The notes under the pieces are model-generated. The model was not told the DNA's origin and ran no database searches. It saw only the letters and a list, made by a program, of their open reading frames with translations. A program made the translations under genes and the position numbers. From the NCBI GenBank assembly GCA_041548245.1, contig JBFESZ010000050.1, forward strand, positions 1 to 13,898: a stretch of 13,898 bases of DNA, written 5' to 3'. Positions 1-12,550 of the stretch are shown piece after piece. Source of the DNA: Sulfurimonadaceae bacterium. GTDB lineage: Bacteria; Campylobacterota; Campylobacteria; Campylobacterales; Sulfurimonadaceae. Numbering within the stretch: the first letter of the stretch is position 1; every line of letters begins with the position of its first letter.

Positions 1-1464
1 CTCCTGTTTTTATTTTCCCTGCCTATCGTCGTACTTCTATTTCTTACCTTCCCGAGAATATCCTATAAAAAAGCCCGTTTCGGATTTGCAGCTGAAGAGA
101 TCAAGCGAACGGGCCATGATGGGACCATGCATCTTGATTCAAATGCCATGCTTGTACCCTCACCTAAACTGGTTATGGAAGTTACATTTGAAGAGCAAGT
201 TCCCTCTGATCATGCACTCTATTTTCGAGGTTCAGTCCTTTATACGGACATGGGTACACGCTGGGTACAGGAGGGAAGCATCTATGCCAAACGAACCATG
301 CCACTTGATGTGCAGAACGTCATAAACTACAAAATCAAACTCTATCCGCACAATCAACTGTGGCTCTATATGCTAGATATTCCCCTGATGCAACCTCTTA
401 AAAGTACGATTGATAAAGACTTTATCACACGAAGCCAAGAATTGGTCAAAGAGACTCTGTATTACGAAGGACGTTCGGCCTTAAACTACACACTTCCCCA
501 AGAAGACCAAAAAATTCTCTATAAAGCCCTTCAATTCGATAGAAATAGAGACCCTAAAACCTACAAAGCACTCAGAGATGCCATAGACATCAATGCCGAT
601 AGTCTAAGCAAAGCGAATGCGCTACTAAACTTCTTCTCCGAGTTAGAACTTTCTTATTCACTAAAACCTAAAAAAATAGACCTGGCACACCCTGTTGATT
701 CCTTTCTTTACGACTCCAAGATCGGTTACTGTGTCCATTTTGCTTCATCCTTTGCAACAAGTGCCCGTATGATAGGTATACCGGCAAGAGTCGTTACAGG
801 ATATAAAGCGGACCGTTCCAATGCGATTAACAATTATCTTCTTGTAAAAGAGGCGGATGCACATGCCTGGGTTGAGTTGTATATACAAGGTCAAGGATGG
901 CAAAGGTTTGAACCTACATCCACGGCGCGGCGTGTCCTTGCACCCGAGAATCCTCAACTATCCAATACCTATACGAATGCATCATTGCAACTTACTAGCA
1001 TACAAAAGCTCTTCAGACAAATCAATATCTACTATATGTATACCCGATACATCTTAAACAACTGGGTCCTGCAATACAGCCGTATGAAACAAAACGCATT
1101 GCTGCATAAACTACTCAACAACACACTGTTTCTATTCAAGTTCCTTGCCTCTCTTGCTGCCTTAATCCTGCTGAGTATCATCGCCTTTGTTCTGCTTCAG
1201 CGCAAAAGGTGCGATGACCCGGTATTGTGCGAGATGAAAAAACTTGTTAAAGTGTTGAAAAAAGAAGGCATTCGAAGAGAACGTGGCGAGACGATGTTCG
1301 ACTTTTTACAAAGAGCAGGCATTAACGGAGCTCATACAGATGAGATTTCAGAGATAAACACTCTGTATCATCTGTGCAGATACTCCCGGAGAGAAGACGA
1401 TAGCCTTCTCATACGGCTACGTCGTAGTATTCTTGCGCTGAAAAAGTCTCTTAAGAACGGCTAG
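1..1464 (+). CDS. Transglutaminase-like domain membrane protein, TgpA/DUF3488 type (5' end lies outside the window)
   Basis: Frame +1 is open from base 1 (LLFLFSLPIVVLLFLTFPR...TGHDGTM), so the ORF-track start at 127 is internal. Transglutaminase-like core motifs: GYCVHFA (Cys codon 730-732), GIPARVVTGY, AHAWVE (His codon 862-864), RFEPT (Glu codon 910-912). C-terminal hydrophobic helix FLASLAALILLSIIAFVLL. Stop at 1462-1464. Confidence 0.9.
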   Translation, partial: LLFLFSLPIVVLLFLTFPRISYKKARFGFAAEEIKRTGHDGTMHLDSNAMLVPSPKLVMEVTFEEQVPSDHALYFRGSVLYTDMGTRWVQEGSIYAKRTMPLDVQNVINYKIKLYPHNQLWLYMLDIPLMQPLKSTIDKDFITRSQELVKETLYYEGRSALNYTLPQEDQKILYKALQFDRNRDPKTYKALRDAIDINADSLSKANALLNFFSELELSYSLKPKKIDLAHPVDSFLYDSKIGYCVHFASSFATSARMIGIPARVVTGYKADRSNAINNYLLVKEADAHAWVELYIQGQGWQRFEPTSTARRVLAPENPQLSNTYTNASLQLTSIQKLFRQINIYYMYTRYILNNWVLQYSRMKQNALLHKLLNNTLFLFKFLASLAALILLSIIAFVLLQRKRCDDPVLCEMKKLVKVLKKEGIRRERGETMFDFLQRAGINGAHTDEISEINTLYHLCRYSRREDDSLLIRLRRSILALKKSLKNG

Positions 1465-2017
1465 TCACTTCAACGATATGAAAACCGAACTGTGTCTTGA
1501 CGATATGCAGTGTGTTTAGCTCTGCATTAAAACAGACCTCATCAAATTCCGGAACCATCTGTCCTTGTGTAAACTGACCCAAATCACCACCGCTGCTTTT
1601 TGAAGGACAAGCCGAGTTCTCCATCGCGACCTGAGCAAAATCGGCTCCCGCTTCGATCTGGGATCTTAACTCCAGACATTTCTCTTCACTGTCAACTAGA
1701 ATATGACGTGCACTTGCTGTTTGAACGACCGGTTCTTCTACTTCTTCGCGGCTTGTCACCTCAACGATATGGTAACCAAACTGCGTTTTTACGATATGCA
1801 GGACGTTTATTTCATCATTAAAACAGACCTTGTCAAATTCCGGAACCATCTGTCCTTGTGTAAACTGACCCAAATCACCACCGCTGCTTTTTGAAGGACA
1901 AGCCGAGTTCTCCATCGCGACCTGAGCAAAATCGGCTCCCGCTTCGATCTGTGATCTTAACTCCAGACATTTGTCTTCATTATCTACTAATATGTGGCGT
2001 GCACTTGCAATTATCAT
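1451..2017 (-). CDS. ppiC: Peptidyl-prolyl cis-trans isomerase, parvulin family, with two tandem PpiC domains (about 188 aa, no signal peptide)
   Basis: Each domain has ASARHILV, FAQVA..NSACPS, GGDLG.F, MVPEF and TQFG(Y/F)HIV. ATG at 2017 is preceded by AGGAGAG (2021-2027, minus strand), so it is preferred over the ORF-track start at 2053. Confidence 0.93.
   Translation of the reverse strand: MIIASARHILVDNEDKCLELRSQIEAGADFAQVAMENSACPSKSSGGDLGQFTQGQMVPEFDKVCFNDEINVLHIVKTQFGYHIVEVTSREEVEEPVVQTASARHILVDSEEKCLELRSQIEAGADFAQVAMENSACPSKSSGGDLGQFTQGQMVPEFDEVCFNAELNTLHIVKTQFGFHIVEVTSRS
1458..2008. repeat. Intragenic direct repeat with 291-bp period (copies at about 1458-1717 and 1749-2008)
   Basis: Manual alignment: 1542-1660 is identical to 1833-1951 (119 bp), and 1542-1681 vs 1833-1972 has one mismatch. 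The flanks are about 80% identical. Confidence 0.97.
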
Positions 2018-2070
2018 AATCTCTCCTGAATCGTATTTTATGAAATCGTACACTAAACCTCTTTACAAAT

Positions 2071-2692: not shown

Positions 2693-4873
2693 TCATACTT
2701 TAGGATGCTTCTTGTCGTTCACAAGTCTATTGATGAAGTTTCCAACAGATTTAAAGACCTTCTTATTTCCCTTGCCTGCAATCATGACATGTCTGGAAAA
2801 ATCGAACATTTCAAGAGCTTTATCCCCTGAACTGATACTCTGCAGTATTTTATCTGCACTTTCAGGCTTGACGACAGGGTCTTTGTCTGCTTGAAGTATT
2901 AAAGTCGGTGTCGTGATTATTGGCAGGATAGACCGGCACTCTTCCATCAATTGGCGCAGCTGCTCAAGGGATTTGATATAGTTTCTCTCATAATTAAACT
3001 CCGGAAACTCGGCTTCAGTGTCAATATATTCCATACCTGCATGAAATATCGATAAAAAATCATTCATCTTGCTAAGCGATGGTACAAAGTATTTGACTCG
3101 TATATCTTGAAGCTCAAGTGCAGCATTAATGACGACAAGTCCGTCTACCTTATTCGACTTTCTTGCAGTGGCCAGCATCGCCAACAAGCCACCTGTTGAA
3201 AAACCAATAAGACAGAGTCTCTTACTCACCTGACGCATAGCGGCAAAACCTCGGTTAAAACTGTCATACCACTCTTCCCAGGTTCTATCTCGTAGGTCCT
3301 CACTCACTGTCCCATGGCCTTCAAGTCTTACGGCATACACGTTTATACCTCGTTCATGCAAGTAGTTTGCCAACTCTTTTACTTCAGAAGGAGATGACCT
3401 GTAACCATGAGATATGACTACACCTGTAGTAAAGACCGGATTATACAGGACAAAAGGCCTACCTGTCTCTTTGGGTTTAGACAGATGTACGGAATAAAAC
3501 CGATTATAGTTTTTTACATAGTGTTTGTAATCTCTGTCATAGATAACTTTGAAGACCTCTTCCTTGACCCTGGTTGAACTTTCACATAAATTATCTTTGA
3601 TACTGCATAGATTATCATGCACACTTTTAGACACTTCGGGAAACAGTGCGATCTCATTCAAGATCACACGAAGCGTATTTTTAACCCGGATGGAATGAAA
3701 GGTATGCTCATCTGCAAACACGTCCCTGTTAATAAGATAAAAATCCTCTTCGACTTTCGACAATACTTTTTGCTCTAACGCCAAAGTAAGACTACTGTCG
3801 TACCAAGGGTCACACTCATCCGTAAGCAATTTAAACAACTCTTCCGTAATACTGTGATGAAGATTGAACTTATTAAGCTGTCCTACATCTCTGGCGGCTA
3901 AAAAAATCGCCCGTTTAAGCTCATTGGAGTCTATATGGTCTTCACCGTAATGCTCCAAAGCCAGGGCAAAGATATGATCAAAATTGATCAGAACATTTTT
4001 ATACACTGCTGCCATAAACTGTGTTGTCAAATCATGACGACAGGTGTTGATTATATCTTCACCTTCGAAAGGCTCACACTCTTCCTTTCTTGTCTCTTTT
4101 GCCTCATACAGGTACTTATAAATATCGATGGGCTTATCAAAAAAGATGTGAATTTCGGAGTTAAGCAATATATTTCCCTCAATTTCAAGTTCTTCTTTAA
4201 TACGCTCATCAATCTTGTCGACAAACCTTTCACCAATACTCATAAGAGGATTCATTCCCGGACGGATAGGCACATAGGTGATATTGATTGGAACCACCAC
4301 CGTATTTTTATAGGCGACACGCTCATCCGGGTTTATAAAATATGTTTCTCGCATCTGACGGACCTTTATGACATCACCCGCCTGTTGCGCTTCTTTGTAC
4401 TCCTGTTTAAGCAGTTCGGACTTCATCGCCAATACGGCTGAGCCTGTATGCATCTTCTCTGTTCCATCCAAAAAGTCTAGTATAAACTCTTTGTTACGAA
4501 TGATCTTTTTATTTTTGACCATCGCACCTTCAGGGTAGATCATCCAATTCTTACGACCTGTCATCAAATCACCCAGTATAATTTCGTCCCGGTGTTTATG
4601 CTGCGTAGAGAGTGTTCCTAATTTGTTTAAAAAACTTCCAAAATATCCGACAAAGATCGAATGATCAGCAAGAGAACGCACTGCCATTTGTGAATGCGAA
4701 GAGATAACATAGGGCATCACAAAAGTCTCAAAACGCGTAAAATGATTAGCGACAAAAAGTGTAGGAGAATCATGTAAAAGGTTTTCTTCACCGTGTACAT
4801 GGATATTCGTCTCAAGAATGGATTCAACCAGACTCATTAAATACGTAGTTGAACTGTAAAATATATTCTCCAT
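2693..4873 (-). CDS. Fusion protein: N-terminal PlsC-like glycerolipid acyltransferase domain plus C-terminal alpha/beta-hydrolase (carboxylesterase/monoacylglycerol-lipase-like), 726 aa
   Basis: N-terminal blocks FVANHFTRFE (H44, E49), IYPEG (about aa 112-116) and VVPINITY. C-terminal SHGY (H489), RLEGHG, GFSTGG nucleophile elbow (S559), DPVV (D665) and RHV (H695). RBS AAGGGA lies in the 19-nt gap after fadE. Confidence 0.87.
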   Translation of the reverse strand: MENIFYSSTTYLMSLVESILETNIHVHGEENLLHDSPTLFVANHFTRFETFVMPYVISSHSQMAVRSLADHSIFVGYFGSFLNKLGTLSTQHKHRDEIILGDLMTGRKNWMIYPEGAMVKNKKIIRNKEFILDFLDGTEKMHTGSAVLAMKSELLKQEYKEAQQAGDVIKVRQMRETYFINPDERVAYKNTVVVPINITYVPIRPGMNPLMSIGERFVDKIDERIKEELEIEGNILLNSEIHIFFDKPIDIYKYLYEAKETRKEECEPFEGEDIINTCRHDLTTQFMAAVYKNVLINFDHIFALALEHYGEDHIDSNELKRAIFLAARDVGQLNKFNLHHSITEELFKLLTDECDPWYDSSLTLALEQKVLSKVEEDFYLINRDVFADEHTFHSIRVKNTLRVILNEIALFPEVSKSVHDNLCSIKDNLCESSTRVKEEVFKVIYDRDYKHYVKNYNRFYSVHLSKPKETGRPFVLYNPVFTTGVVISHGYRSSPSEVKELANYLHERGINVYAVRLEGHGTVSEDLRDRTWEEWYDSFNRGFAAMRQVSKRLCLIGFSTGGLLAMLATARKSNKVDGLVVINAALELQDIRVKYFVPSLSKMNDFLSIFHAGMEYIDTEAEFPEFNYERNYIKSLEQLRQLMEECRSILPIITTPTLILQADKDPVVKPESADKILQSISSGDKALEMFDFSRHVMIAGKGNKKVFKSVGNFINRLVNDKKHPKV

Positions 4874-4892: not shown

Positions 4893-7289
4893 CTAGTTTC
4901 TTTCTGCATAATCTTTCACGGAGAACTCATCAACCATTATAGTCTCTTCTCTTATCCGCCTGGCTTCTTTCATCAGTGCATGCTCTTCCTCATTGATAAG
5001 ACCTGAGTCAAGTGCATTCTTATAAAGATCGCCTTCTTTACTGAGTTTTCTTGCTTTAAGCTCTTTTTTTACCTTAGTTGCGATGATGTCCGCCTTCCTT
5101 GATAATTGAAAGGCATGTTCAAGTCTGCCTAGCGCCGAGTTATCGTCTTTGGGAATATATATCCCCTCTGTAAGTTTTTCCCTATCTGCATTATCGAAGA
5201 GTATTTTGTGTGCCAACTCTTTTGAATAAAGATCACTTGGTGCTTTGGAAAATGCATTAAGGCGCACATAAAAAGCCACTGGATAAGCGAACAATAACCC
5301 GACTATGGATCGGTCAATGTTATTGCTAATCTCTTCAAAGGCATTTTGTATCTCATACAGAGCATAATCTCCTATCCATTTGACATACACTTTATCTTCT
5401 GCTCTTTCGCCTTCATCTTCATAACGTTTCAATGTAGCGCTTAAAAGATACATCCAAGACAAAATGTCACCAAAACGTGCTGTGACCTTCTCTTTTTGTT
5501 TGAGATTGCCACCGTAATACCCCATGACAAAATCTGTAAGGAAAGCGAAAGTAGCAGAGCTCCAGACTAATTTTCGCTCATACTTCGCAATCAGGGATGA
5601 ACGTGATGAAAAATGCAAATGACCACGGCTAAAACTCAGCAAAATCATACGGACCATATTGCGTAACGTAAAACCGATATGTTTAAAGAAGTTCTCATCA
5701 AAATCTTTCACATTCCCCTTTTCAAGAGCTTCTATCTCCTTATAGGCATAAGGATGGCAACGAATAACGCCCTGTCCGAATTGGATAAGCGTACGTGTCA
5801 TGATATTCGCACCCTCGACCGTAATTGCCACTGGCGCACTGAAGTAGGCATGTCCCAATAGGTTCTTTGGTCCAAGTGAGATTGCAGCCCCGCCCAAGAT
5901 ATCCATGGATTTATTGATGATCTCTCTGAATTTCTCTGTGGAGTGATACTTCATGACTGCATTGATTACAGCCGGTTTTTTCCCCTCGTCAATGGCACCA
6001 ATAGTAAACTTTCGTGAAGCATCCATCATATAGGTAAATGCTGCGATCTTTGCCAGTTCAGTCTCAATGCCTTCAAACTTTCCGATAGATATTCCAAACT
6101 GTTCACGCACTTCTGCATAGGCTCCTGCAACACGGGCACAAAGTTTTGCTCCGCCTGTGCTTGTCGATGGCAGAGAAATACCTCGTCCGACAGCCAAGGA
6201 CTCCATCAACATCATCCAACCTTTGCCAATACCTTTCTCACCGCCGATAATATCATCAATACCTATCTCGACGTCTTTACCACTGATCGGCGAGTTGATA
6301 AATGGTACGCTTAACGGATCATGGCGACGCCCTTGAACTACACCTTTACTCTTAGCATCGACCAAGGCACAACAGATTCCAAGGTCTACACCCCTTCCCA
6401 GAACCTCTTCAGGGTCTTTAAGAATAAAAGCCAGACCTATCACCGTAGCGATTGATCCCAGTGTGATATAACGTTTGTCAAACTGAAGACGAATTTTGAC
6501 ATTTCCAGACTCATCTTTAAAAACCTCTCCGTAAGAGCGTATAGATGTCGCATCTGATCCGGCATGTGGTTCAGTCAATGCAAAACAGGGAATATCCGTT
6601 CCATCGGCCAAACGTGGAAGATAATGTTCTTTCTGCTTTGTCGTACCATAATGCATAAGCAGTTCTGCCGGTCCAAGAGAGTTTGGTACCATTGTCGTAA
6701 TAGCCAAGACCTGTGAACGTGATGCCATTTTTTGTATGACTGCACTATGCCCGAGTGCTGAAAATCCCAAACCACCATACGATTTTGGAATAATCATCCC
6801 GAAGAACTTATTCTCTTTAAGGTATCGCCACACCTCTTCAGAAAGATCGCGCTCCTTAAAGACAGCCCAGTCATCCGTCATTTCACAAACGGTATCGACC
6901 TCATTTTCCAAGAACTCTTTTTCCTCTTGAGAGAGTGAAGGATAGTTCTCTTTGAATATACTGTCAAAGTCTGGTTTTCCACTGAAAAACTCACCGTCAA
7001 CCCATATTGTTCCGGCACGTAATGCCGTCTTTTCTGTCTCTGATATTCGAGGCATCAGGTGTAACCTGTTAACCAGACTTACCAGATGGCGACTAATGAG
7101 CTCCTGACGGATACTTGGCGTCAACAGTATGATATTGACAGGTATATATATCATCCAAAAAAGCATCCCCGGTTCACACCCGAAAAAGATAGTTGCCGCT
7201 AAAACTGCAGCCCAATAGACTGCCTTTGCTCCACGATACCATAAGGTTATTAAAACCAGTAATAGAGCGATTGTTATATATTCCATCAT
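4893..7289 (-). CDS. fadE: Acyl-CoA dehydrogenase, long FadE type with N-terminal membrane anchor, 798 aa
   Basis: MPRISETEKTALRAGTIW, VPNSLGPAELL, CFALTEPHAGSDA, KRYITL, GRGISLP, REQFG, catalytic ITVEGANIMTR and C-terminal IMVDEF. Hydrophobic N-terminus; RBS GGGAG. Confidence 0.95.
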   Translation of the reverse strand: MMEYITIALLLVLITLWYRGAKAVYWAAVLAATIFFGCEPGMLFWMIYIPVNIILLTPSIRQELISRHLVSLVNRLHLMPRISETEKTALRAGTIWVDGEFFSGKPDFDSIFKENYPSLSQEEKEFLENEVDTVCEMTDDWAVFKERDLSEEVWRYLKENKFFGMIIPKSYGGLGFSALGHSAVIQKMASRSQVLAITTMVPNSLGPAELLMHYGTTKQKEHYLPRLADGTDIPCFALTEPHAGSDATSIRSYGEVFKDESGNVKIRLQFDKRYITLGSIATVIGLAFILKDPEEVLGRGVDLGICCALVDAKSKGVVQGRRHDPLSVPFINSPISGKDVEIGIDDIIGGEKGIGKGWMMLMESLAVGRGISLPSTSTGGAKLCARVAGAYAEVREQFGISIGKFEGIETELAKIAAFTYMMDASRKFTIGAIDEGKKPAVINAVMKYHSTEKFREIINKSMDILGGAAISLGPKNLLGHAYFSAPVAITVEGANIMTRTLIQFGQGVIRCHPYAYKEIEALEKGNVKDFDENFFKHIGFTLRNMVRMILLSFSRGHLHFSSRSSLIAKYERKLVWSSATFAFLTDFVMGYYGGNLKQKEKVTARFGDILSWMYLLSATLKRYEDEGERAEDKVYVKWIGDYALYEIQNAFEEISNNIDRSIVGLLFAYPVAFYVRLNAFSKAPSDLYSKELAHKILFDNADREKLTEGIYIPKDDNSALGRLEHAFQLSRKADIIATKVKKELKARKLSKEGDLYKNALDSGLINEEEHALMKEARRIREETIMVDEFSVKDYAERN

Positions 7290-7300
7290 ATCTCCCTTTC

Positions 7301-9403
7301 TTAATAAAATGTCTTGTTGTTTTTTGCCATATCTCGCAAGAGTTTCGCCGGTTCAAACCTCATTCCATGGTTTTTGGACAAAGACTCGAGCGTCATTACA
7401 ACATTTTGCGCGCCCAGTGAATCGGCATAACGCAACAGACCTCCCCTGAACGGTGGGAAGCCTGTCCCCATTACCATTGCCATGTCCAGATATTGCGCAT
7501 TTTCGACAATCCCCTCTTCCAGGCACATCGCAGCCTCATTGATCATGATCAGAAGTGCTCTGTCGATTATCTCCTGCTCGTCAAACCTACGTTTTGAGAA
7601 GACAAGCTTCACAACTTCTTCATTAACTTCACGTTTTTTACTGCCGTGAATATAGAACCCCTTTCCTGATTTTTTCCCAAGCAACTGCATCTGTTGATAC
7701 ACTCTATCAAGAATAGATGAAACTTTCATTCTCTCTCCATAAGCATCTTCAAGTACCTTGGCAACTTTATAACCGACATCAAGTCCGACTTCATCAGCCA
7801 AAACAAAAGGACCCATCGGCATACCAAAATCTGATATCAAGGCATCAATCTTTTCAAAATCGGCACCCTCTTCAAACATTCTTACCGCCTCATTGATATA
7901 AGGAAGCAAAATACGGTTTACTAAAAAGCCCGCACAGTCTCCTACAACGACAGGTGTTTTTCCAGCCTCCTTGGCAAGGGCAACCACCGTCGCTATGGTC
8001 CTGTCGGAGGTCATCTTACCTGGTATAATCTCAACAAGAGGCATTCGAGGCACAGGATTGAAAAAATGCATCCCTATAAATCGTTCAGGATGCTGCATCT
8101 TCTCACTAAGCATTGTAATGGACAAAGAAGACGTATTGGTCGCAATGATGGCCTTCTCGTCCATAATCTCTTCAAGCTGACCATAGAGTTCCTGTTTGGC
8201 CTTTGTATCCTCCACAATAGCTTCAAGCGCGAGGTCACAATTATTAAACCCGCTAAAGTCAGTTGTATAGGTAATATGTCCCATCCTCATGTTGACTTCA
8301 GCCGGAGTCAAACGATGGCGCTTGACAATCCCGTCATAGACTTTTTGGATCGATTTCAAGGCCTCTGTCGCCTGCTCATACCGACGAAGTTTCATCCGAA
8401 CGAGTTTTCCTATTTTAGAAAACTGAAACACTATTCCTGATCCCATCACGCCGGCACCGACAACGTTCATCAACCGCACCTGTAATGGATTGATTCTGCG
8501 TTTGACTCCACGTTCCTTCTTCAAGGCTTCAGAAGTATAAAATAGGGCTATAAGGTTTTTGCTAATGTCTGTGATGGCAAGCTTTGAAAAGGCTCTGGCC
8601 TCATATTCCAGCCCCTCTTCGACTTCTTTGTTCTGTGTCCTTTCCATCAGGTCCAGTACTGCTAGAGGCGCAGGATACTTGTTCTTTGTCTTTGCAGCAA
8701 CACTCTTACGGGCATAAGAGAAGACCAGTTTTGGAAGATAACGATCCATCAAAGAAGCTTTTTTCCGCTTTTTCACTATTTCATGTGGGTTATTCAAAAT
8801 AAGTTCAATAAAACTTTTTTGTTTGAACTCCAAATACCCCTGAGGAACACAAGCATCAACAACACCCAGTTTCTCAGCTTTTTTTCCATTTAATATCTTG
8901 CCGCCAAGAATCAACTCCAATGCTTTGGAGAGACCTGTAAGGTACTTTAATCGTTGTGTTCCTCCAAATCCAGGCAGAACACCCAAGTTGACTTCAGGCA
9001 AGCCTATCTTTGTTTTAGGACTTTCCGTACATAAACGGTAATCACAACACAGAGCCAATTCCAGGCCACCGCCCAAACACGCTCCGTCGATAACAGCCAG
9101 TGTGGGATAAGGAAGCGCTGAGATCTCGCTCAATATTTTTTGACCTTCACGGACTTTTTCATATGCCTCCTCTTCATCTCTTAAGTCTTCTATCTCAGAG
9201 ATGTCAGCACCCGCTATGAATATTCCGTCTTTCGCAGAGGTGATCTGAAGCAGCCTAATATCCTCAGCCTTTTTTATCTCTTGAAGTTTACTATCTAAAG
9301 TCCTTAATACATCCGAAGAAAGAATGTTGATAGCGGACTCTTCCAAATCCAGGCAGAGGGTTGCAATGCCATTATTGTCTACAGAAAAATCAAATGCTTT
9401 CAT
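7301..9403 (-). CDS. fadJ: Multifunctional fatty-acid oxidation complex alpha subunit (enoyl-CoA hydratase / 3-hydroxyacyl-CoA dehydrogenase), FadJ/FadB type, 700 aa
   Basis: Crotonase motifs FIAGADI, CLGGGLELAL and GLPEVNLGVLPGFGGTQRL. Dehydrogenase motifs GAGVMG, EAIVE, TNTSSL, GMHFFNP, GFLVNR and GMPMGP. The probable start is ATG 9403 (MKAF), overlapping the thiolase stop (TAATG) with GGAGG upstream, not 9451. fadJ versus fadB cannot be settled without a tree. Confidence 0.92.
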   Translation of the reverse strand: MKAFDFSVDNNGIATLCLDLEESAINILSSDVLRTLDSKLQEIKKAEDIRLLQITSAKDGIFIAGADISEIEDLRDEEEAYEKVREGQKILSEISALPYPTLAVIDGACLGGGLELALCCDYRLCTESPKTKIGLPEVNLGVLPGFGGTQRLKYLTGLSKALELILGGKILNGKKAEKLGVVDACVPQGYLEFKQKSFIELILNNPHEIVKKRKKASLMDRYLPKLVFSYARKSVAAKTKNKYPAPLAVLDLMERTQNKEVEEGLEYEARAFSKLAITDISKNLIALFYTSEALKKERGVKRRINPLQVRLMNVVGAGVMGSGIVFQFSKIGKLVRMKLRRYEQATEALKSIQKVYDGIVKRHRLTPAEVNMRMGHITYTTDFSGFNNCDLALEAIVEDTKAKQELYGQLEEIMDEKAIIATNTSSLSITMLSEKMQHPERFIGMHFFNPVPRMPLVEIIPGKMTSDRTIATVVALAKEAGKTPVVVGDCAGFLVNRILLPYINEAVRMFEEGADFEKIDALISDFGMPMGPFVLADEVGLDVGYKVAKVLEDAYGERMKVSSILDRVYQQMQLLGKKSGKGFYIHGSKKREVNEEVVKLVFSKRRFDEQEIIDRALLIMINEAAMCLEEGIVENAQYLDMAMVMGTGFPPFRGGLLRYADSLGAQNVVMTLESLSKNHGMRFEPAKLLRDMAKNNKTFY

Positions 9404-10692
9404 TATTCTACCTCCAAAATCAGTGATGCACCCTGTCCACCACCTATACATAAAGTAGCGAGACCTCTGTTCTTGCCTCTACGACGCAATTCTTTCAAAG
9501 TATGTATCACAAGACGTGTACCTGTCATACCGACAGGGTGTCCCAAGGCGACAGCACCACCATTGACATTGAAAGTACTCATATCTATGCTGCCCAATGC
9601 CTGACTTCGTCCAAAATGCTCTTTCGCATAGCTTTTAGAATCAAAGGCGACGACATTTGCCAAGGCTTGAACAGCGAAAGCCTCATTCATCTCTATTAGA
9701 TCAATATCCTTGAGACTCATTTTATACTTTCCGAACAGCTTGGCTGTCGCATATGAAGGTCCCATCCCCATACGTTTTGGTTCAAGACCGGCATAGGCGT
9801 AACGGCTCAAATACCCCAAAGGTTCGAGACCCATCGATTTAGCCTTGGATTCACTCATCAAAACAACAGCGGCTGCGGCATCTGAGACCTGCGATGAGTT
9901 ACCGGCCGTGACTGTTCCATTTTTTCTATCAAAGAATGGTCGCAGTTTTCCCAAGGCATCCATGCTCTGTCCAAAACGTATACCGTCATCATCTTCCATG
10001 ATTTTGCCTGCTTTGCTATCATAGACAAGCGGTGAGATCTCTTCTCTGAATATTCCGGCCTTTGTCGCTGCTTCAGCTTTTTTATGACTCTCCAGGGCGA
10101 ACCTGTCCTGCTCTTCTCTGCTTATTCCAAAATCCTGTGCCAAGACCTCAGCAGTTGAACCCATCATCAAACCGCTAACGGGATCTGTAAGCCCTTGCAT
10201 AAGGCCGATAATGGGTTTAATATATCGAAACCTAAAATGCGTAAGTGTATAAAGCTTTTCTGATATGCTCTTTGCTTTAAAGAGCGCTTCAAAGAGTTCT
10301 TTCATCTTGTCACTGTAAATCAAAGGGATATTGCTCATCGACTCCACGCCACCGGACATAAATATCTCACCCTGACCCGCTAATATCTTAGACGCAGCCG
10401 ATGTAATCGATTCCATACCTGATGCGCAGTTTCTGTGCACCGTGTAGGCTATGGTAGAATCCGGGAATCCTGCTTCCAAAGCAATCACACGTGCCACATT
10501 CGCTGCATGAGCAGGCTGCGAGACATTACCCATAATCACCTCATCGTACATCTCAAAGGGTATTCCCACTCTCAATGCCAGTTCCTGAACGATATGTGCA
10601 CCTAATCTCTCGGCATGGATATCTTTGAAGTTACCGCCTGCCTTTGCGATGGGAGTACGTATTCCATCTATTATTGCTATACGCTCTTTCAT
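9403..10692 (-). CDS. fadI: 3-ketoacyl-CoA thiolase (FadI/FadA type), 429 aa
   Basis: DGIRTP, RNCASG (nucleophile Cys), GGVESMS, VTAGNSSQVSD, NEAFA, GHPVGMTG and LCIGGGQG. The long loop after GGVESMS is FadI-like. The start overlaps the fadD stop (ATGA, 10689-10692). Confidence 0.93.
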   Translation of the reverse strand: MKERIAIIDGIRTPIAKAGGNFKDIHAERLGAHIVQELALRVGIPFEMYDEVIMGNVSQPAHAANVARVIALEAGFPDSTIAYTVHRNCASGMESITSAASKILAGQGEIFMSGGVESMSNIPLIYSDKMKELFEALFKAKSISEKLYTLTHFRFRYIKPIIGLMQGLTDPVSGLMMGSTAEVLAQDFGISREEQDRFALESHKKAEAATKAGIFREEISPLVYDSKAGKIMEDDDGIRFGQSMDALGKLRPFFDRKNGTVTAGNSSQVSDAAAAVVLMSESKAKSMGLEPLGYLSRYAYAGLEPKRMGMGPSYATAKLFGKYKMSLKDIDLIEMNEAFAVQALANVVAFDSKSYAKEHFGRSQALGSIDMSTFNVNGGAVALGHPVGMTGTRLVIHTLKELRRRGKNRGLATLCIGGGQGASLILEVE

Positions 10693-12425
10693 GATTCACT
10701 CCTGTAAAAGTTTTCTATCTCATGTTTGTATATCTCTTCGACCTTCTTGCGTGAGAGCTTCATCGACGGCGTCAAAATACCGCTTTCTATACTTACCTGG
10801 TCACTGACGATATAAAATTTCTGTATCTGTTCCCAATGATTCAATCTAAGGTTTAGTTTTTTGATGATGTTAAATACAATAGCCTGAATACGCTTGTGCT
10901 GTACCAACTCTTCGTATGTGAGTCCATCTAGTCGTTTACGTTCTGCAAAAGCTTGTAATAATGTCTCATCCATAAAAACCAAAGCTGATACAAAAGGTCT
11001 GCCATCAGCAATAATAATCGCATAATCTATCCATTTGTTCGCTGTTATCTCCTGCTCTATGGCGATTGCAGAAACATATTTTCCTGTTGATGTCTTAAAG
11101 AGCTCTTTTTTACGGCTGAGAATTGTAATGTATCCTTCATCATCAATTTCAGCCAGATCTCCTGTATGCAACCATCCTTCTTCATCAATCGTCTCTTTTG
11201 TCTTAAGAGGCTGCTGGTGATATCCAAGCATCATACTCTCCCCTCGCATCAGTAGTTCAGAATCTTCGGCCAGTTTGACTTCAACATGTGCATAAGCTTT
11301 TCCGCATGTTCCTACCTTATTCGCATCAGGTGTGTTCACGCATATGACAGGAGAAGTCTCGGTAAGGCCATAGCCTTGATAAAGAGGTACACCTATATTA
11401 TGAAAAAATCTGTATACCGCCATAGAGAGTGGTGCACCTCCGCTGATAAGATATTTCAGCTCCCCTCCGAGCGCATCTGTGAGTTTTGAATAGACCAGTT
11501 TTGCGAAGATCCTATCAAGGAAGTTCTCTTTATCCCTATTTGGGTCTTTATGGTTTGCCCTAGAAAAAGCCATCCAGGCCACCAACCATTTAAGACCTTT
11601 TGCTGCATGTGCGTTCTCATGCATCTTGATGTAAATTTTGTCCAATAGACGCGGTACCACCGTCATGACATTTGGCCTTATATCTTTTAACAGGTTGGCT
11701 ACATTTTTAACATCATCGGCAAAATAGATCGATGCACCCGTTGTAAGATAAAAACTCATAACCATACGTTCGAATATATGTGCCAAAGGAAGGAAGCTCA
11801 AGACTTTATAACTTTTTTCCATCGTAAAACATTCATGTGTGTCTTTGATTTGCGTGATGATGTTTAGGTGCGAAAGCTCAACACCTTTGGGAACACCTGT
11901 TGAGCCGCTAGTATAGATAATAGTTGCCAGATCATTAGGTGAGATATTTGGTCTTTCATAGGAGATATCCGCTGTTAAAAAATCATCCCACAATTCAATA
12001 TTGTTACCGCTGGCTTGAATATCTTTAAGCAGGACTAACTTCATGCTCTCCAGATAGGAAGCTATTTGATCGTATTTCTCCTGTGAAGCTATATAGGCGT
12101 ACTCAATTTGTGCATCTTTGAGTTCAAAGTTAAGGTTTTCTGAAGAGATATTGGCGAAGATGGGGACCGAGACAGCCCCCAAACATTGCAAGGCATAATC
12201 CACCATCAACCAGAAAGGTGAGGAGTCAGAGATAATGGCGACACTTGTGCCTTGAGATACACCCCGTTTTTGAAAAGCACTTGCCAAAGCATGAACCGAA
12301 CGGACAAACTCTGCAGAAGAGATACTTTTCCACTGAGCGTCTTCAAGATAGTTCAAATAGTTTTCATTGGCTATCTCGTTTTCAATATATTCAACAATTT
12401 CACAGAGGTTATTACATTCAAACAT
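10689..12425 (-). CDS. fadD: Long-chain fatty acid--CoA ligase (AMP-dependent synthetase), about 578 aa
   Basis: IIYTSGSTGVPKG P-loop, FLPLAHIFER, SGGAPL, QGYGLTETSP, WLHTGDL, RKKELFKTSTGKY and LTPSMK. ATG 12425, preceded by AAGGG, is preferred over TTG 12431. Confidence 0.93.
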   Translation of the reverse strand: MFECNNLCEIVEYIENEIANENYLNYLEDAQWKSISSAEFVRSVHALASAFQKRGVSQGTSVAIISDSSPFWLMVDYALQCLGAVSVPIFANISSENLNFELKDAQIEYAYIASQEKYDQIASYLESMKLVLLKDIQASGNNIELWDDFLTADISYERPNISPNDLATIIYTSGSTGVPKGVELSHLNIITQIKDTHECFTMEKSYKVLSFLPLAHIFERMVMSFYLTTGASIYFADDVKNVANLLKDIRPNVMTVVPRLLDKIYIKMHENAHAAKGLKWLVAWMAFSRANHKDPNRDKENFLDRIFAKLVYSKLTDALGGELKYLISGGAPLSMAVYRFFHNIGVPLYQGYGLTETSPVICVNTPDANKVGTCGKAYAHVEVKLAEDSELLMRGESMMLGYHQQPLKTKETIDEEGWLHTGDLAEIDDEGYITILSRKKELFKTSTGKYVSAIAIEQEITANKWIDYAIIIADGRPFVSALVFMDETLLQAFAERKRLDGLTYEELVQHKRIQAIVFNIIKKLNLRLNHWEQIQKFYIVSDQVSIESGILTPSMKLSRKKVEEIYKHEIENFYRSES

Positions 12426-12550
12426 ATCCAACCCTTAAGGTAAATATCTTTATCGCATTACATATTCTATCTCATTTATTTTACGATTCAAACATTTTTT
12501 AACTTTTTTGAATATTGAAATTTTATTTGTACATTTTATTTAAAGTTTGT

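What the first reader, a model, noticed from the sequence alone, without database searches (positions are those of the whole stretch)
8381..8458. 3-hydroxyacyl-CoA dehydrogenase domain lacks the NAD-selecting Asp and has Leu-Arg-Arg: possible NADP(H) switch
Seen: the Rossmann segment reads GAGVMGSGIVFQFSKIGKLVRMK-L-R-R (L339, R340, R341 from the 9403 start). Established: in FadB/FadJ this segment ends in an acidic residue (E. coli FadB, from memory: [26 protein letters not shown]) that binds the adenosine ribose of NAD and excludes the 2'-phosphate. Loss of that acid plus adjacent Arg is the usual signature of NADP preference. The alignment is gap-free and the catalytic HFFNP and TNTSS motifs are intact, so this does not look like decay. 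Inference: the complex may yield NADPH from fatty acids or run reductively (chain elongation).
Basis: partly seen in the sequence, partly recalled or inferred. Interest (0 to 1): 0.8.

Follow-up and report, generated by a model that had tools for sequence, protein, structure and literature searches.

The report
NADP-type cofactor pocket in FadJ-like enzyme
A fatty-acid-breakdown enzyme of a marine sulfur bacterium lacks the residue that normally makes this enzyme use NAD and has an arginine beside it, as in its relatives across the phylum, so it probably uses NADP, though no assay has tested this.

Summary
The FadJ/FadB-like alpha subunit (7301-9403, minus strand) reads GAGVMGSG...VRMK-L339-R340-R341. 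L339 aligns without gaps to the NAD-ribose-binding Asp of E. coli FadB and P. fragi FadB, and is the first residue after strand beta2 in a confident model.

It is not decay or error. Catalytic motifs are intact, and the state "no acid plus Arg at the next position" occurs in 114 of 265 homologues. It occurs in 17 of 17 FadB-like genes found in 401 Campylobacterota species genomes, and in 7 of 7 named Campylobacterota loci. By contrast, 142 of 151 family-wide representatives keep Asp/Glu.

Inside one well-supported clade, four nested groups have an acid again, and each has also lost the Arg. One of these groups is Desulfobulbaceae, which carry the same five-gene operon. Across six contrasts, positions 339 and 340 are the only ones of 700 that change in a consistent direction.

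Best reading (about 0.6): the dehydrogenase domain accepts NADP(H), in a catabolic beta-oxidation operon. No enzyme data exist. A reductive role is less likely. I rate it a new variant of a known kind, of moderate to good interest.

The parts
10689..12431 (-). FadD-like fatty acid-CoA ligase, first gene of the operon
   Evidence: Pfam AMP-binding 2.1e-69 plus AMP-binding_C_3. The best NCBIfam match is FadD11-type ligase, below its cut-off.
9403..10692 (-). FadI/FadA-like 3-ketoacyl-CoA thiolase (beta subunit). Its stop overlaps the next gene's ATG.
   Evidence: Pfam Thiolase_N 1.5e-74 and Thiolase_C 2.3e-40. NCBIfam TIGR01930 scores 444.7 bits, above its cut-off of 240.55; the FadI model scores 437.9, below its cut-off. 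The TAATG overlap is seen.
9411..9415 (-). GGAGG ribosome-binding site 7 nt before the ATG at 9403
   Evidence: Read directly from the sequence.
7301..9403 (-). FadJ/FadB-like trifunctional-enzyme alpha subunit (enoyl-CoA hydratase plus 3-hydroxyacyl-CoA dehydrogenase), 700 aa
   Evidence: Pfam ECH_1, 3HCDH_N (9.8e-58) and 3HCDH. NCBIfam FadJ model scores 722.5 bits, below its cut-off of 869. AF2 model has pLDDT 95.3. Foldseek TM is 0.92 to E. coli anaerobic TFE alpha, 6ysv.
8381..8458 (-). Rossmann beta1-helix-beta2 segment, from GAGVMG to K338-L339-R340-R341 (the finding)
   Evidence: Model secondary structure: beta1 311-315, helix 319-330, beta2 334-338.
8381..8389 (-). Codons of L339 (in place of the NAD-selecting Asp), R340 and R341
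   Evidence: Alignment to the Asp of FadB/FadJ structures. Positions 339 and 340 are the only columns with a consistent directional change in 6 of 6 contrasts.
8126..8140 (-). TNTSS motif (residues 422-426) of the dehydrogenase active site, intact
   Evidence: T424 and S425 are invariant in 91 sequences.
8054..8068 (-). HFFNP motif (residues 446-450) holding the catalytic His, intact
   Evidence: H446 and P450 are invariant.
4893..7289 (-). FadE-type acyl-CoA dehydrogenase (798 aa)
   Evidence: Pfam ACDH_C 1e-83 plus Acyl-CoA_dh_N/M/1. NCBIfam NF007000 scores 980.7 bits, above its cut-off of 600.
2693..4873 (-). Acyltransferase plus alpha/beta-hydrolase fusion, last gene of the conserved five-gene operon
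   Evidence: Pfam Acyltransferase (residues 24-128) and Hydrolase_4 (485-697). The same gene follows FadE in Sulfurimonas, Sulfuricurvum, Desulfobulbaceae and Desulfocapsa loci.

Best explanation
The gene encodes the alpha subunit of a FadJ/FadB-type fatty-acid beta-oxidation complex. Its 3-hydroxyacyl-CoA dehydrogenase domain has an NADP-type adenosine pocket.

In NAD-using members, the Asp at the tip of strand beta2 hydrogen-bonds the adenosine ribose hydroxyls and repels a 2'-phosphate. The next residue (Ile/Leu/Val) lines the adenine pocket. Here the Asp is Leu339 and the next residue is Arg340 (followed by Arg341). This removes the repulsion and offers a guanidinium to a 2'-phosphate. I therefore expect the enzyme to accept NADP+ and NADPH, either preferring them or using both nucleotides.

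Because the gene sits in a catabolic operon (ligase, thiolase, this gene, FadE-type dehydrogenase), the most likely role is oxidation of 3-hydroxyacyl-CoA, giving NADPH.

Shown here: the residue states, their position in the fold, their conservation and their covariation. Inferred: the contact with the 2'-phosphate, the cofactor preference, and the direction of flux.

The trait belongs to the lineage, not to this gene alone. It is the rule in Campylobacterota FadB-like genes, and it reverts when the operon is found in Desulfobulbaceae.
For: 1. Position. L339 aligns gap-free with the Asp of E. coli FadB and P. fragi FadB, and with the Asp of E. coli FadJ. In the AF2 model (pLDDT 95.3) beta2 is 334-338, so L339 is the beta2 tip.

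2. The family norm is acidic. 142 of 151 rows have Asp/Glu, and only 2 of those 142 have Arg next. Of the 9 non-acid rows, 6 have Arg next.

3. Across 265 homologues of at least 600 aa: 145 acid without Arg, 114 non-acid with Arg, 4 non-acid without Arg, 2 acid with Arg.

4. Phylum pattern. 17 of 401 Campylobacterota species genomes have a FadB-like gene, and 17 of 17 are non-acid plus Arg. All 7 of 7 loci whose record names a Campylobacterota taxon are the same. So are only 5 of the 67 other loci with a hit.

5. Reversions. In a clade with 99% SH-aLRT support (36 rows), the 8 acidic rows fall in four separate nested groups, and every one lacks the Arg.

6. Natural pair. A Campylobacterota-labelled locus (L009, K-V-R-S) and a Desulfobulbaceae locus (L007, K-D-I-N) are 68% identical overall. 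They are identical over the 24 residues before the site. They share the ligase-thiolase-FadB-FadE gene order (the L009 contig ends after FadE).

7. Site scan. Over 700 positions and six contrasts, only 339, 340 and 351 differ in all six. Only 339 (D/E versus non-acid) and 340 (I/L/M/Q versus R) change in one chemical direction.

8. The enzyme is not decaying. GxGxxG, TNTSS, HFFNP and E458 are intact. It is the only 3HCDH_N gene found in the genome; a second, weak hit is a UDP-glucose-dehydrogenase-type fold.

9. Literature passages read. [quoted passage not shown] In F. prausnitzii HBD, Asp31 binds the ribose and Ile32 lines the adenine pit (PMC11476959). A member of the same family, C. kluyveri Hbd1, is NADPH-specific (PMC9393629).

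10. Context. The genome has ATP-citrate lyase. I found no PntB and no G6PD in an assembly that is 95.95% complete, so a direct NADPH source would be useful (inference).
Against: - There is no enzyme assay, and no model with a bound nucleotide.
- Losing the acid is necessary for NADP use but not sufficient. Such enzymes can stay NAD-linked or become dual.
- The phylogenetically corrected covariation test is underpowered. It has 5 independent pairs on well-supported branches, about 4-5 going the same way and none the other way, with p = 0.0625-0.125. The uncorrected Fisher p of 2e-67 ignores relatedness.
- The rule is not absolute within the phylum. P0068, named Sulfurimonas sp. by its source, has V-D-Q.
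- The genome encodes NuoD-E-F-G, so NADH could be re-oxidised. There is no obvious need to avoid NAD.
- Cells usually keep NADP largely reduced, which would make an already unfavourable oxidation harder. The known NADP-linked enzymes acting on this substrate work reductively.
- The one experimentally NADPH-specific family member (C. kluyveri Hbd1) could not be fetched, so I did not check whether it has the same motif.
Confidence: 0.6

Rival explanations
1. The enzyme is still NAD(H)-linked. The Leu-Arg-Arg state is a tolerated, lineage-specific drift of a surface loop, with the ribose held by backbone or other residues. There is no change of cofactor.
For: Nothing has been measured. Four rows have lost the acid without gaining Arg (P0064 V-L, P0182 L-L, P0247 G-N, P0265 A-I), which shows the acid can be lost on its own. 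The genome has an NADH-oxidising complex I module, NuoE/F/G. Characterised FadB-type enzymes prefer NAD: R. eutropha FadB' shows 5-10% activity with NADP(H) (PMC4230905, abstract and passages).
Against: Drift does not explain several observations. Arg follows the non-acid residue in 114 of 118 non-acid rows but in only 2 of 147 acid rows. All four nested returns to an acid also lose the Arg. Positions 339 and 340 are the only two of 700 with a consistent directional change in six contrasts.
Confidence: 0.2
2. The NADP-type pocket serves a reductive role. The complex runs backwards as reverse beta-oxidation or chain elongation, using NADPH to reduce 3-ketoacyl-CoA, as C. kluyveri Hbd1 does.
For: The known NADP-linked enzymes acting on this substrate work reductively: C. 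kluyveri Hbd1 (PMC9393629; PMC13010368) and PhaB (PMC13126070). A high cellular NADPH/NADP+ ratio favours reduction (general knowledge). The last operon gene carries an acyltransferase domain.
Against: The operon starts with a fatty acid-CoA ligase and includes a FadE-type FAD acyl-CoA dehydrogenase scoring above its NCBIfam cut-off. Both are catabolic parts. No enoyl-CoA reductase was seen among the window's ORFs scanned. No ETF was found in the genome, so an Etf/Bcd-type reductive step is not supported. The review read states that acyl-CoA dehydrogenases mostly act oxidatively in vivo (PMC13126070).
Confidence: 0.12
3. The site is an assembly or sequencing artefact, or the gene is decaying.
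For: The window comes from a fragmented assembly (165 contigs). The only public run holding the stretch is probably its own source sample.
Against: The same K-L-R-R occurs in dozens of homologues from separate assemblies. A second assembly of the holding run matches 8369-8700 with no differing letters (not independent). The frame is open and the catalytic motifs are intact. Going from an Asp codon to CTT needs two base changes.
Confidence: 0.01

Closest known systems
E. coli FadJ, alpha subunit of the anaerobic trifunctional enzyme (PDB 6ysv, 8bnr)
   Same: Same domain order (hydratase, dehydrogenase N domain, two C domains). It is the best sequence match among solved structures (3.6e-155) and the best fold match (TM 0.92, 39% identity). 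The best NCBIfam model is also FadJ. A FadI-like thiolase lies next door.
   Different: FadJ has Asp-Ile-Asn at the beta2 tip, where this protein has Leu-Arg-Arg. This protein scores 722.5 bits against the FadJ model, below its cut-off of 869. The operon also carries the ligase, FadE and a fusion acyltransferase/hydrolase.
Pseudomonas fragi FadB (PDB 1wdk) and E. coli FadB (PDB 6tnm)
   Same: They align over the whole length. The Rossmann segment aligns without gaps, and the catalytic motifs are shared.
   Different: Both have Lys-Asp-Ile-Asn at the site.
Ralstonia eutropha FadB' (characterised bifunctional dehydrogenase/hydratase)
   Same: It has the same two activities in one chain and sits in a beta-oxidation operon.
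   Different: It is measured as NAD-preferring, with 5-10% activity on NADP(H) (PMC4230905, abstract and passages). Its domain order is reversed according to that paper. Its residue at the site was not examined here.
Clostridium kluyveri Hbd1 (NADPH-specific 3-hydroxybutyryl-CoA dehydrogenase)
   Same: It is the one member of the 3-hydroxyacyl-CoA dehydrogenase family that papers read here report as NADPH-specific (PMC9393629; PMC13010368). It shows that the family can use NADP.
   Different: It is monofunctional, short-chain and reductive (butyrate/caproate synthesis). Its sequence could not be fetched, so whether it uses the same beta2-tip solution is unknown.
NADP-binding Rossmann dehydrogenases in general (for example carbonyl reductase 1CYD with Arg39 at the beta2 tip)
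   Same: No acid at the beta2 tip and an Arg there that binds the 2'-phosphate (PMC4777477, passages). From recall only, the N-R-S/T motif of 6-phosphogluconate and beta-hydroxyacid dehydrogenases resembles the A/S/V/T-R-S variants seen here.
   Different: These are different families and substrates. The resemblance is one of mechanism, not membership.

Membership tests
FadJ/FadB-type trifunctional-enzyme alpha subunit | Domain order: enoyl-CoA hydratase, then the dehydrogenase NAD(P)-binding domain, then the 3HCDH C-terminal domain(s) | tested here: met
   Pfam ECH_1 (27-233), 3HCDH_N (330-506) and 3HCDH with 2 stretches, in P0001 numbering.
FadJ/FadB-type trifunctional-enzyme alpha subunit | Whole-chain fold like solved alpha subunits | tested here: met
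   AF2 pLDDT 95.3, pTM 0.92. Foldseek TM 0.92 to 6ysv and 0.93 to 1wdk.
FadJ/FadB-type trifunctional-enzyme alpha subunit | Dehydrogenase catalytic residues: His of HFFNP, its partner Glu, Ser of NTSS | tested here: met
   H446, E458 and S425 are invariant in 91 sequences. The motifs are read.
FadJ/FadB-type trifunctional-enzyme alpha subunit | Hydratase catalytic Glu pair | tested here: met
   E115 and E137 are invariant in the 91-row alignment. That these are the catalytic pair is recalled, not tested.
FadJ/FadB-type trifunctional-enzyme alpha subunit | Adjacent thiolase (beta subunit) gene | tested here: met
   The thiolase at 9403-10692 overlaps the alpha start by 1 nt. Binding between the two was not tested.
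FadJ equivalog (NCBIfam NF008363 / TIGR02440) | Score at or above the curated cut-off | tested here: not met
   722.5 bits against a cut-off of 869, and 641.7 against 968.45. It is FadJ-like, not a FadJ equivalog.
NAD-specific 3-hydroxyacyl-CoA dehydrogenases (EC 1.1.1.35 type) | Asp/Glu at the beta2 tip that binds the adenosine ribose | tested here: not met
   Leu339 sits at that column. It is the beta2 tip in the model.
NADP(H)-using Rossmann dehydrogenases (functional class) | No acid at the beta2 tip | tested here: met
NADP(H)-using Rossmann dehydrogenases (functional class) | A basic or hydroxyl residue placed to bind the 2'-phosphate | tested here: inconclusive
   R340 and R341 are present and covary with loss of the acid. 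Their geometry could not be inspected and no nucleotide was modelled.
NADP(H)-using Rossmann dehydrogenases (functional class) | Measured preference for NADP(H) | not testable with these tools
   This needs an enzyme assay.
C. kluyveri Hbd1-type NADPH-linked 3-hydroxybutyryl-CoA dehydrogenase | Same beta2-tip motif as the characterised NADPH enzyme | not tested
   The Hbd1 sequence was not obtainable through the tools. Only its cofactor specificity was read.

The most novel reading that the evidence does not exclude
Campylobacterota as a phylum run the third step of beta-oxidation on NADP+ instead of NAD+. Fatty acids would then be a direct NADPH source for autotrophs that use the reductive TCA cycle and have neither an oxidative pentose-phosphate pathway nor a membrane transhydrogenase. 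The two-residue cofactor switch (beta2-tip acid to non-acid, next residue to Arg) flips back when the same five-gene operon moves into another phylum (Desulfobulbaceae). If so, cofactor choice follows the host's redox economy rather than the gene's ancestry.
Probability: 0.4. Interest if true: 0.72.

Novelty: new variant of a known kind. Interest (0 to 1): 0.6.

Why it matters
The papers I read treat beta-oxidation as producing NADH: every FadB/FadJ-type enzyme they describe is NAD-linked. My searches of the held paper library found no NADP-dependent FadB/FadJ-type enzyme assigned to a gene. The one reported NADP-dependent activity, in T. brucei, was shown not to come from its TFE-alpha gene (PMC4262433).

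A natural NADP-type alpha subunit would matter in three ways:
- It would change how these are drawn for marine and sediment Campylobacterota that carry the operon.
- **A natural experiment.** There are four reversions, plus a cross-phylum pair that is 68% identical. Together they offer a test of how two residues set cofactor choice.
- **Pathway engineering.** It would supply ready-made NADPH-linked parts for reverse beta-oxidation, where (S)-specific dehydrogenases using NADPH are scarce.

Tried and rejected
- **Complex I lacking the NADH module.** I considered that this organism, like Campylobacter and Helicobacter (recalled), lacks the NADH-binding module of complex I and so avoids making NADH. 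Rejected: NuoD, NuoE, NuoF and NuoG-like genes lie together on contig C3.
- **E343 replacing the Asp.** Rejected. E343 is the first residue of the next helix. It is K, A, P or S in many clade members that also lack the acid. Canonical enzymes also carry an acid near there.
- **A second, NAD-type paralogue in the genome.** Not found. The only other 3HCDH_N hit (20.5 bits) is a UDP-glucose/GDP-mannose dehydrogenase-type N-terminus.
- **Literature on the structural basis of Hbd1's NADPH specificity.** None was found in the passages read.
- **Literature on Sulfurimonas beta-oxidation.** Two papers were listed; neither was read beyond the listing.
- **Sequencing runs.** One DNA holder was found (share 0.95), probably the source sample, and no RNA holder was listed. 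Its contigs match 8200-8347 and 8369-8700 with no differing letters, with a contig break between them. These are contigs, not raw reads, so minority variants cannot be excluded.
- **Model coordinates.** They were not available to scripts, so no side-chain geometry or docking was done.
- **Complex prediction.** Not used, because it scores protein partners, not ligands.
- **ETF.** Not found in the genome. Only absence in a 95.95%-complete assembly can be stated.
Full report
**What is there**

The window's minus strand carries a five-gene operon:
- a FadD-like fatty acid-CoA ligase (10689-12431);
- a FadI/FadA-like thiolase (9403-10692);
- a FadJ/FadB-like alpha subunit (7301-9403);
- a FadE-type acyl-CoA dehydrogenase (4893-7289);
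- a fusion of an acyltransferase domain with an alpha/beta hydrolase (2693-4873).

The alpha subunit starts at the ATG at 9403. The database copy of the protein has 700 aa, Met1 is invariant in the clade, and a GGAGG lies 7 nt upstream. The thiolase stop overlaps the start as TAATG.

**The observation**

The translation reads GAGVMGSGIVFQFSKIGKLVRMK-L339-R340-R341-YEQ. A script places it at nt 8458-8381, exactly as reported.

phmmer against solved structures aligns L339, without gaps, to the Asp of P. fragi FadB (1wdk) and of E. coli FadB (6tnm). It also aligns to the Asp of E. coli FadJ (6ysv).

An AlphaFold2 model built on 91 sequences is confident (pLDDT 95.3, pTM 0.92). It puts beta1 at 311-315, the glycine-loop helix at 319-330 and beta2 at 334-338. 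L339 is thus the beta2 tip, and E343 opens the next helix. The model superposes on E. coli anaerobic TFE alpha with TM 0.92.

TNTSS and HFFNP are intact. S425, H446 and E458 are invariant in 91 homologues.

**Is it unusual in the family?**

Yes. Among the 150 nearest 50%-identity cluster representatives plus the query:
- 142 of 151 have Asp or Glu at this column, and only 2 of those have Arg at the next position;
- 9 lack the acid, and 6 of these have Arg next (the query, P0122, P0123, P0129, P0180, P0232).

**Is it conserved in a clade?**

Yes, broadly. Of the 120 closest homologues (57-100% identity), all but seven read non-acid (L, V, A, G, T, S) followed by Arg. Six have Asp/Glu followed by a non-Arg residue, and one reads V-L.

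Over 265 homologues of at least 600 aa, the states are:

| State | Rows |
|---|---|
| Acid, no Arg | 145 |
| Non-acid plus Arg | 114 |
| Non-acid, no Arg | 4 |
| Acid plus Arg | 2 |

The clade is Campylobacterota. Names given by sources include Sulfurimonas, Arcobacter and Campylobacterales. In named genome records, all 7 of 7 Campylobacterota loci have the state: Campylobacterales L-R-R, Sulfurimonas A-R-T, Helicobacteraceae V-R-R, 'Campylobacteraceae' V-R-S, Sulfuricurvum A-R-S and two Sulfurovum A-R-K.

Of the 80 loci, 6 gave no hit in this segment. Of the 67 other loci with a hit:
- 5 have the state (two Bacteroidales, a Christensenellaceae, a Peptoniphilaceae, an actinobacterium);
- 58 are acidic;
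- 1 is acid plus Arg;
- 2 are ambiguous because of gaps;
- 1 (L078) scores as non-acid only because its alignment is shifted by one residue.

In a sample of 401 species genomes of the phylum, only 17 have a FadB-like gene (own family: the window's genome plus 2 of 34 others; other families 2/20, 11/23 and 1/19; the two largest families 0/118 and 0/158). All 17 of 17 read non-acid plus Arg.

**Covariation**

A FastTree of 265 rows and a tree of 180 rows that includes the named loci place the query in a well-supported clade. The rare acidic members are nested inside it.

An IQ-TREE run on 47 rows (LG+G4, SH-aLRT) gives a 99%-supported clade of 36 rows: 27 non-acid plus Arg, 8 acid and 1 non-acid without Arg. 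The acidic rows form four separate nested groups:
- P0101 and P0104;
- P0086;
- P0063, P0068 and P0096;
- L007 and L008.

Each group lies inside a starred clade, and each has lost the Arg.

The fourth group is Desulfobulbaceae and Desulfocapsa. These loci carry the same five-gene operon as the Campylobacterota loci. Their nearest relative, L009, is labelled Campylobacterota. It is 68% identical to L007 overall and identical over the 24 residues before the site. It then reads V-R-S-A-K where L007 reads D-I-N-N-D.

I also scanned all 700 positions over six acid versus non-acid contrasts. Only 339, 340 and 351 differ in all six. Only 339 (D/E versus G/A/V/L/T) and 340 (I/L/M/Q versus R) change in one chemical direction.

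The formal independent-pairs test finds 5 pairs on well-supported branches, about 4-5 concordant and none discordant, with p = 0.0625-0.125. It cannot reach 0.05 with so few pairs. The uncorrected Fisher test (2e-67) ignores relatedness and should not be leaned on. I did not remove the two trait columns from the roughly 710 columns used for the trees.

**Mechanism**

From papers read in passages:
- The beta2-tip carboxylate binds the ribose hydroxyls of NAD, and its replacement is a prerequisite for NADP use. In an NADP-dependent carbonyl reductase an Arg at the beta2 tip binds the phosphate (PMC4777477).
- In a solved family member, Asp31 binds the ribose and the next residue, Ile32, lines the adenine pit (PMC11476959).

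Replacing Asp-Ile by Leu-Arg therefore removes the repulsion of a 2'-phosphate and puts a guanidinium beside it. This contact is inferred. I had no coordinates and no nucleotide-bound model.

The family can use NADP: C. kluyveri Hbd1 is NADPH-specific (PMC9393629). I could not obtain its sequence to see whether it uses the same solution.

**Direction and physiology**

The operon content is catabolic (ligase, FadE-type dehydrogenase, thiolase). No enoyl-CoA reductase is among the window's ORFs scanned, and no ETF was found in the genome. I therefore favour oxidation that yields NADPH over reverse beta-oxidation. Two points keep the reductive reading alive at about 0.1: a reduced NADP pool would disfavour oxidation, and the known NADP-linked enzymes on this substrate work reductively.

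The genome has ATP-citrate lyase, a marker of the reductive TCA cycle. I found no PntB and no G6PD in a 95.95%-complete assembly, so a direct NADPH source is plausible. This is inference.

The idea that the organism cannot oxidise NADH is rejected, because NuoD-E-F-G are present.

**Known or new?**

Searches of the held paper library found no FadB/FadJ-type enzyme assigned to NADP:
- R. eutropha FadB' prefers NAD, with 5-10% activity on NADP(H) (PMC4230905).
- The NADP-dependent activity of T. brucei is not encoded by its TFE-alpha gene (PMC4262433).
- A 2026 review lists the family's solved members as NADH enzymes (PMC13126070).

Subscription-journal papers are not in the library, so 'not in print' is limited to these searches.

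**Verdict**

The NADP(H) reading is well supported by comparative evidence but unmeasured (confidence about 0.6). It is a new variant of a known kind of enzyme, with ready-made natural controls for a decisive assay.

Noticed in passing
window 2693-4873 (-); also L005:11387-13525, L013:11491-13647, L007:11274-13409, L008:11277-13421: A ~720-aa fusion ends the operon in both Campylobacterota and Desulfobulbaceae. It has a PlsC-like acyltransferase domain at the N-terminus, an S33/alpha-beta hydrolase domain at the C-terminus, and ~350 residues between them with no Pfam match. Its role is unknown; lipid hydrolysis or re-acylation feeding the pathway are possibilities.
   Followed up: partly
L007, L008 (Desulfobulbaceae, Desulfocapsa) versus L009, L014, L015 (Campylobacterota): The whole ligase-thiolase-FadB-FadE(-fusion) operon appears to have moved between Campylobacterota and Desulfobulbaceae. 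The Desulfobulbaceae FadB proteins nest inside a Campylobacterota clade with 100% support.
   Followed up: partly
L015:9127-12180: In a Sulfurovum locus, FadB is followed by a TPP-dependent enzyme and an aldehyde dehydrogenase instead of FadE.
   Followed up: no
L066, L068, L070, L071, L081: Shorter relatives outside the phylum also read S-R-S, A-R-S or V-R-N at the beta2 tip. They come from Bacteroidales, Christensenellaceae and Peptoniphilaceae (matching query residues ~24-584) and from an actinobacterium (matching residues 312-587). These are possible further NADP-type members, perhaps in butyrate-type pathways.
   Followed up: no
window 1451-2053 (-): A 200-aa protein made of two nearly identical PpiC-type rotamase domains in tandem, that is, an internal duplication.
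   Followed up: no
window 1-1464 (+): The 3' part of a TgpA-like transglutaminase, with TgpA_N, Transglut_core and DUF4129 domains, running off the window's start.
   Followed up: no
window 9401-9405: The thiolase stop and the FadB-like start overlap as TAATG, with a GGAGG inside the thiolase's last codons. This suggests translational coupling of the beta and alpha subunits.
   Followed up: yes
P0064, P0182, P0247, P0265 (homologues): Four homologues lack the beta2 acid and also lack the Arg (V-L, L-L, G-N, A-I). Their cofactor use is hard to predict, and they are exceptions to the covariation.
   Followed up: no
G000 genome: C3 (L003), C20 (L101): The genome has NuoD-E-F-G and ATP-citrate lyase. 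PntB, G6PD and ETF were not found in the 95.95%-complete assembly.
   Followed up: partly
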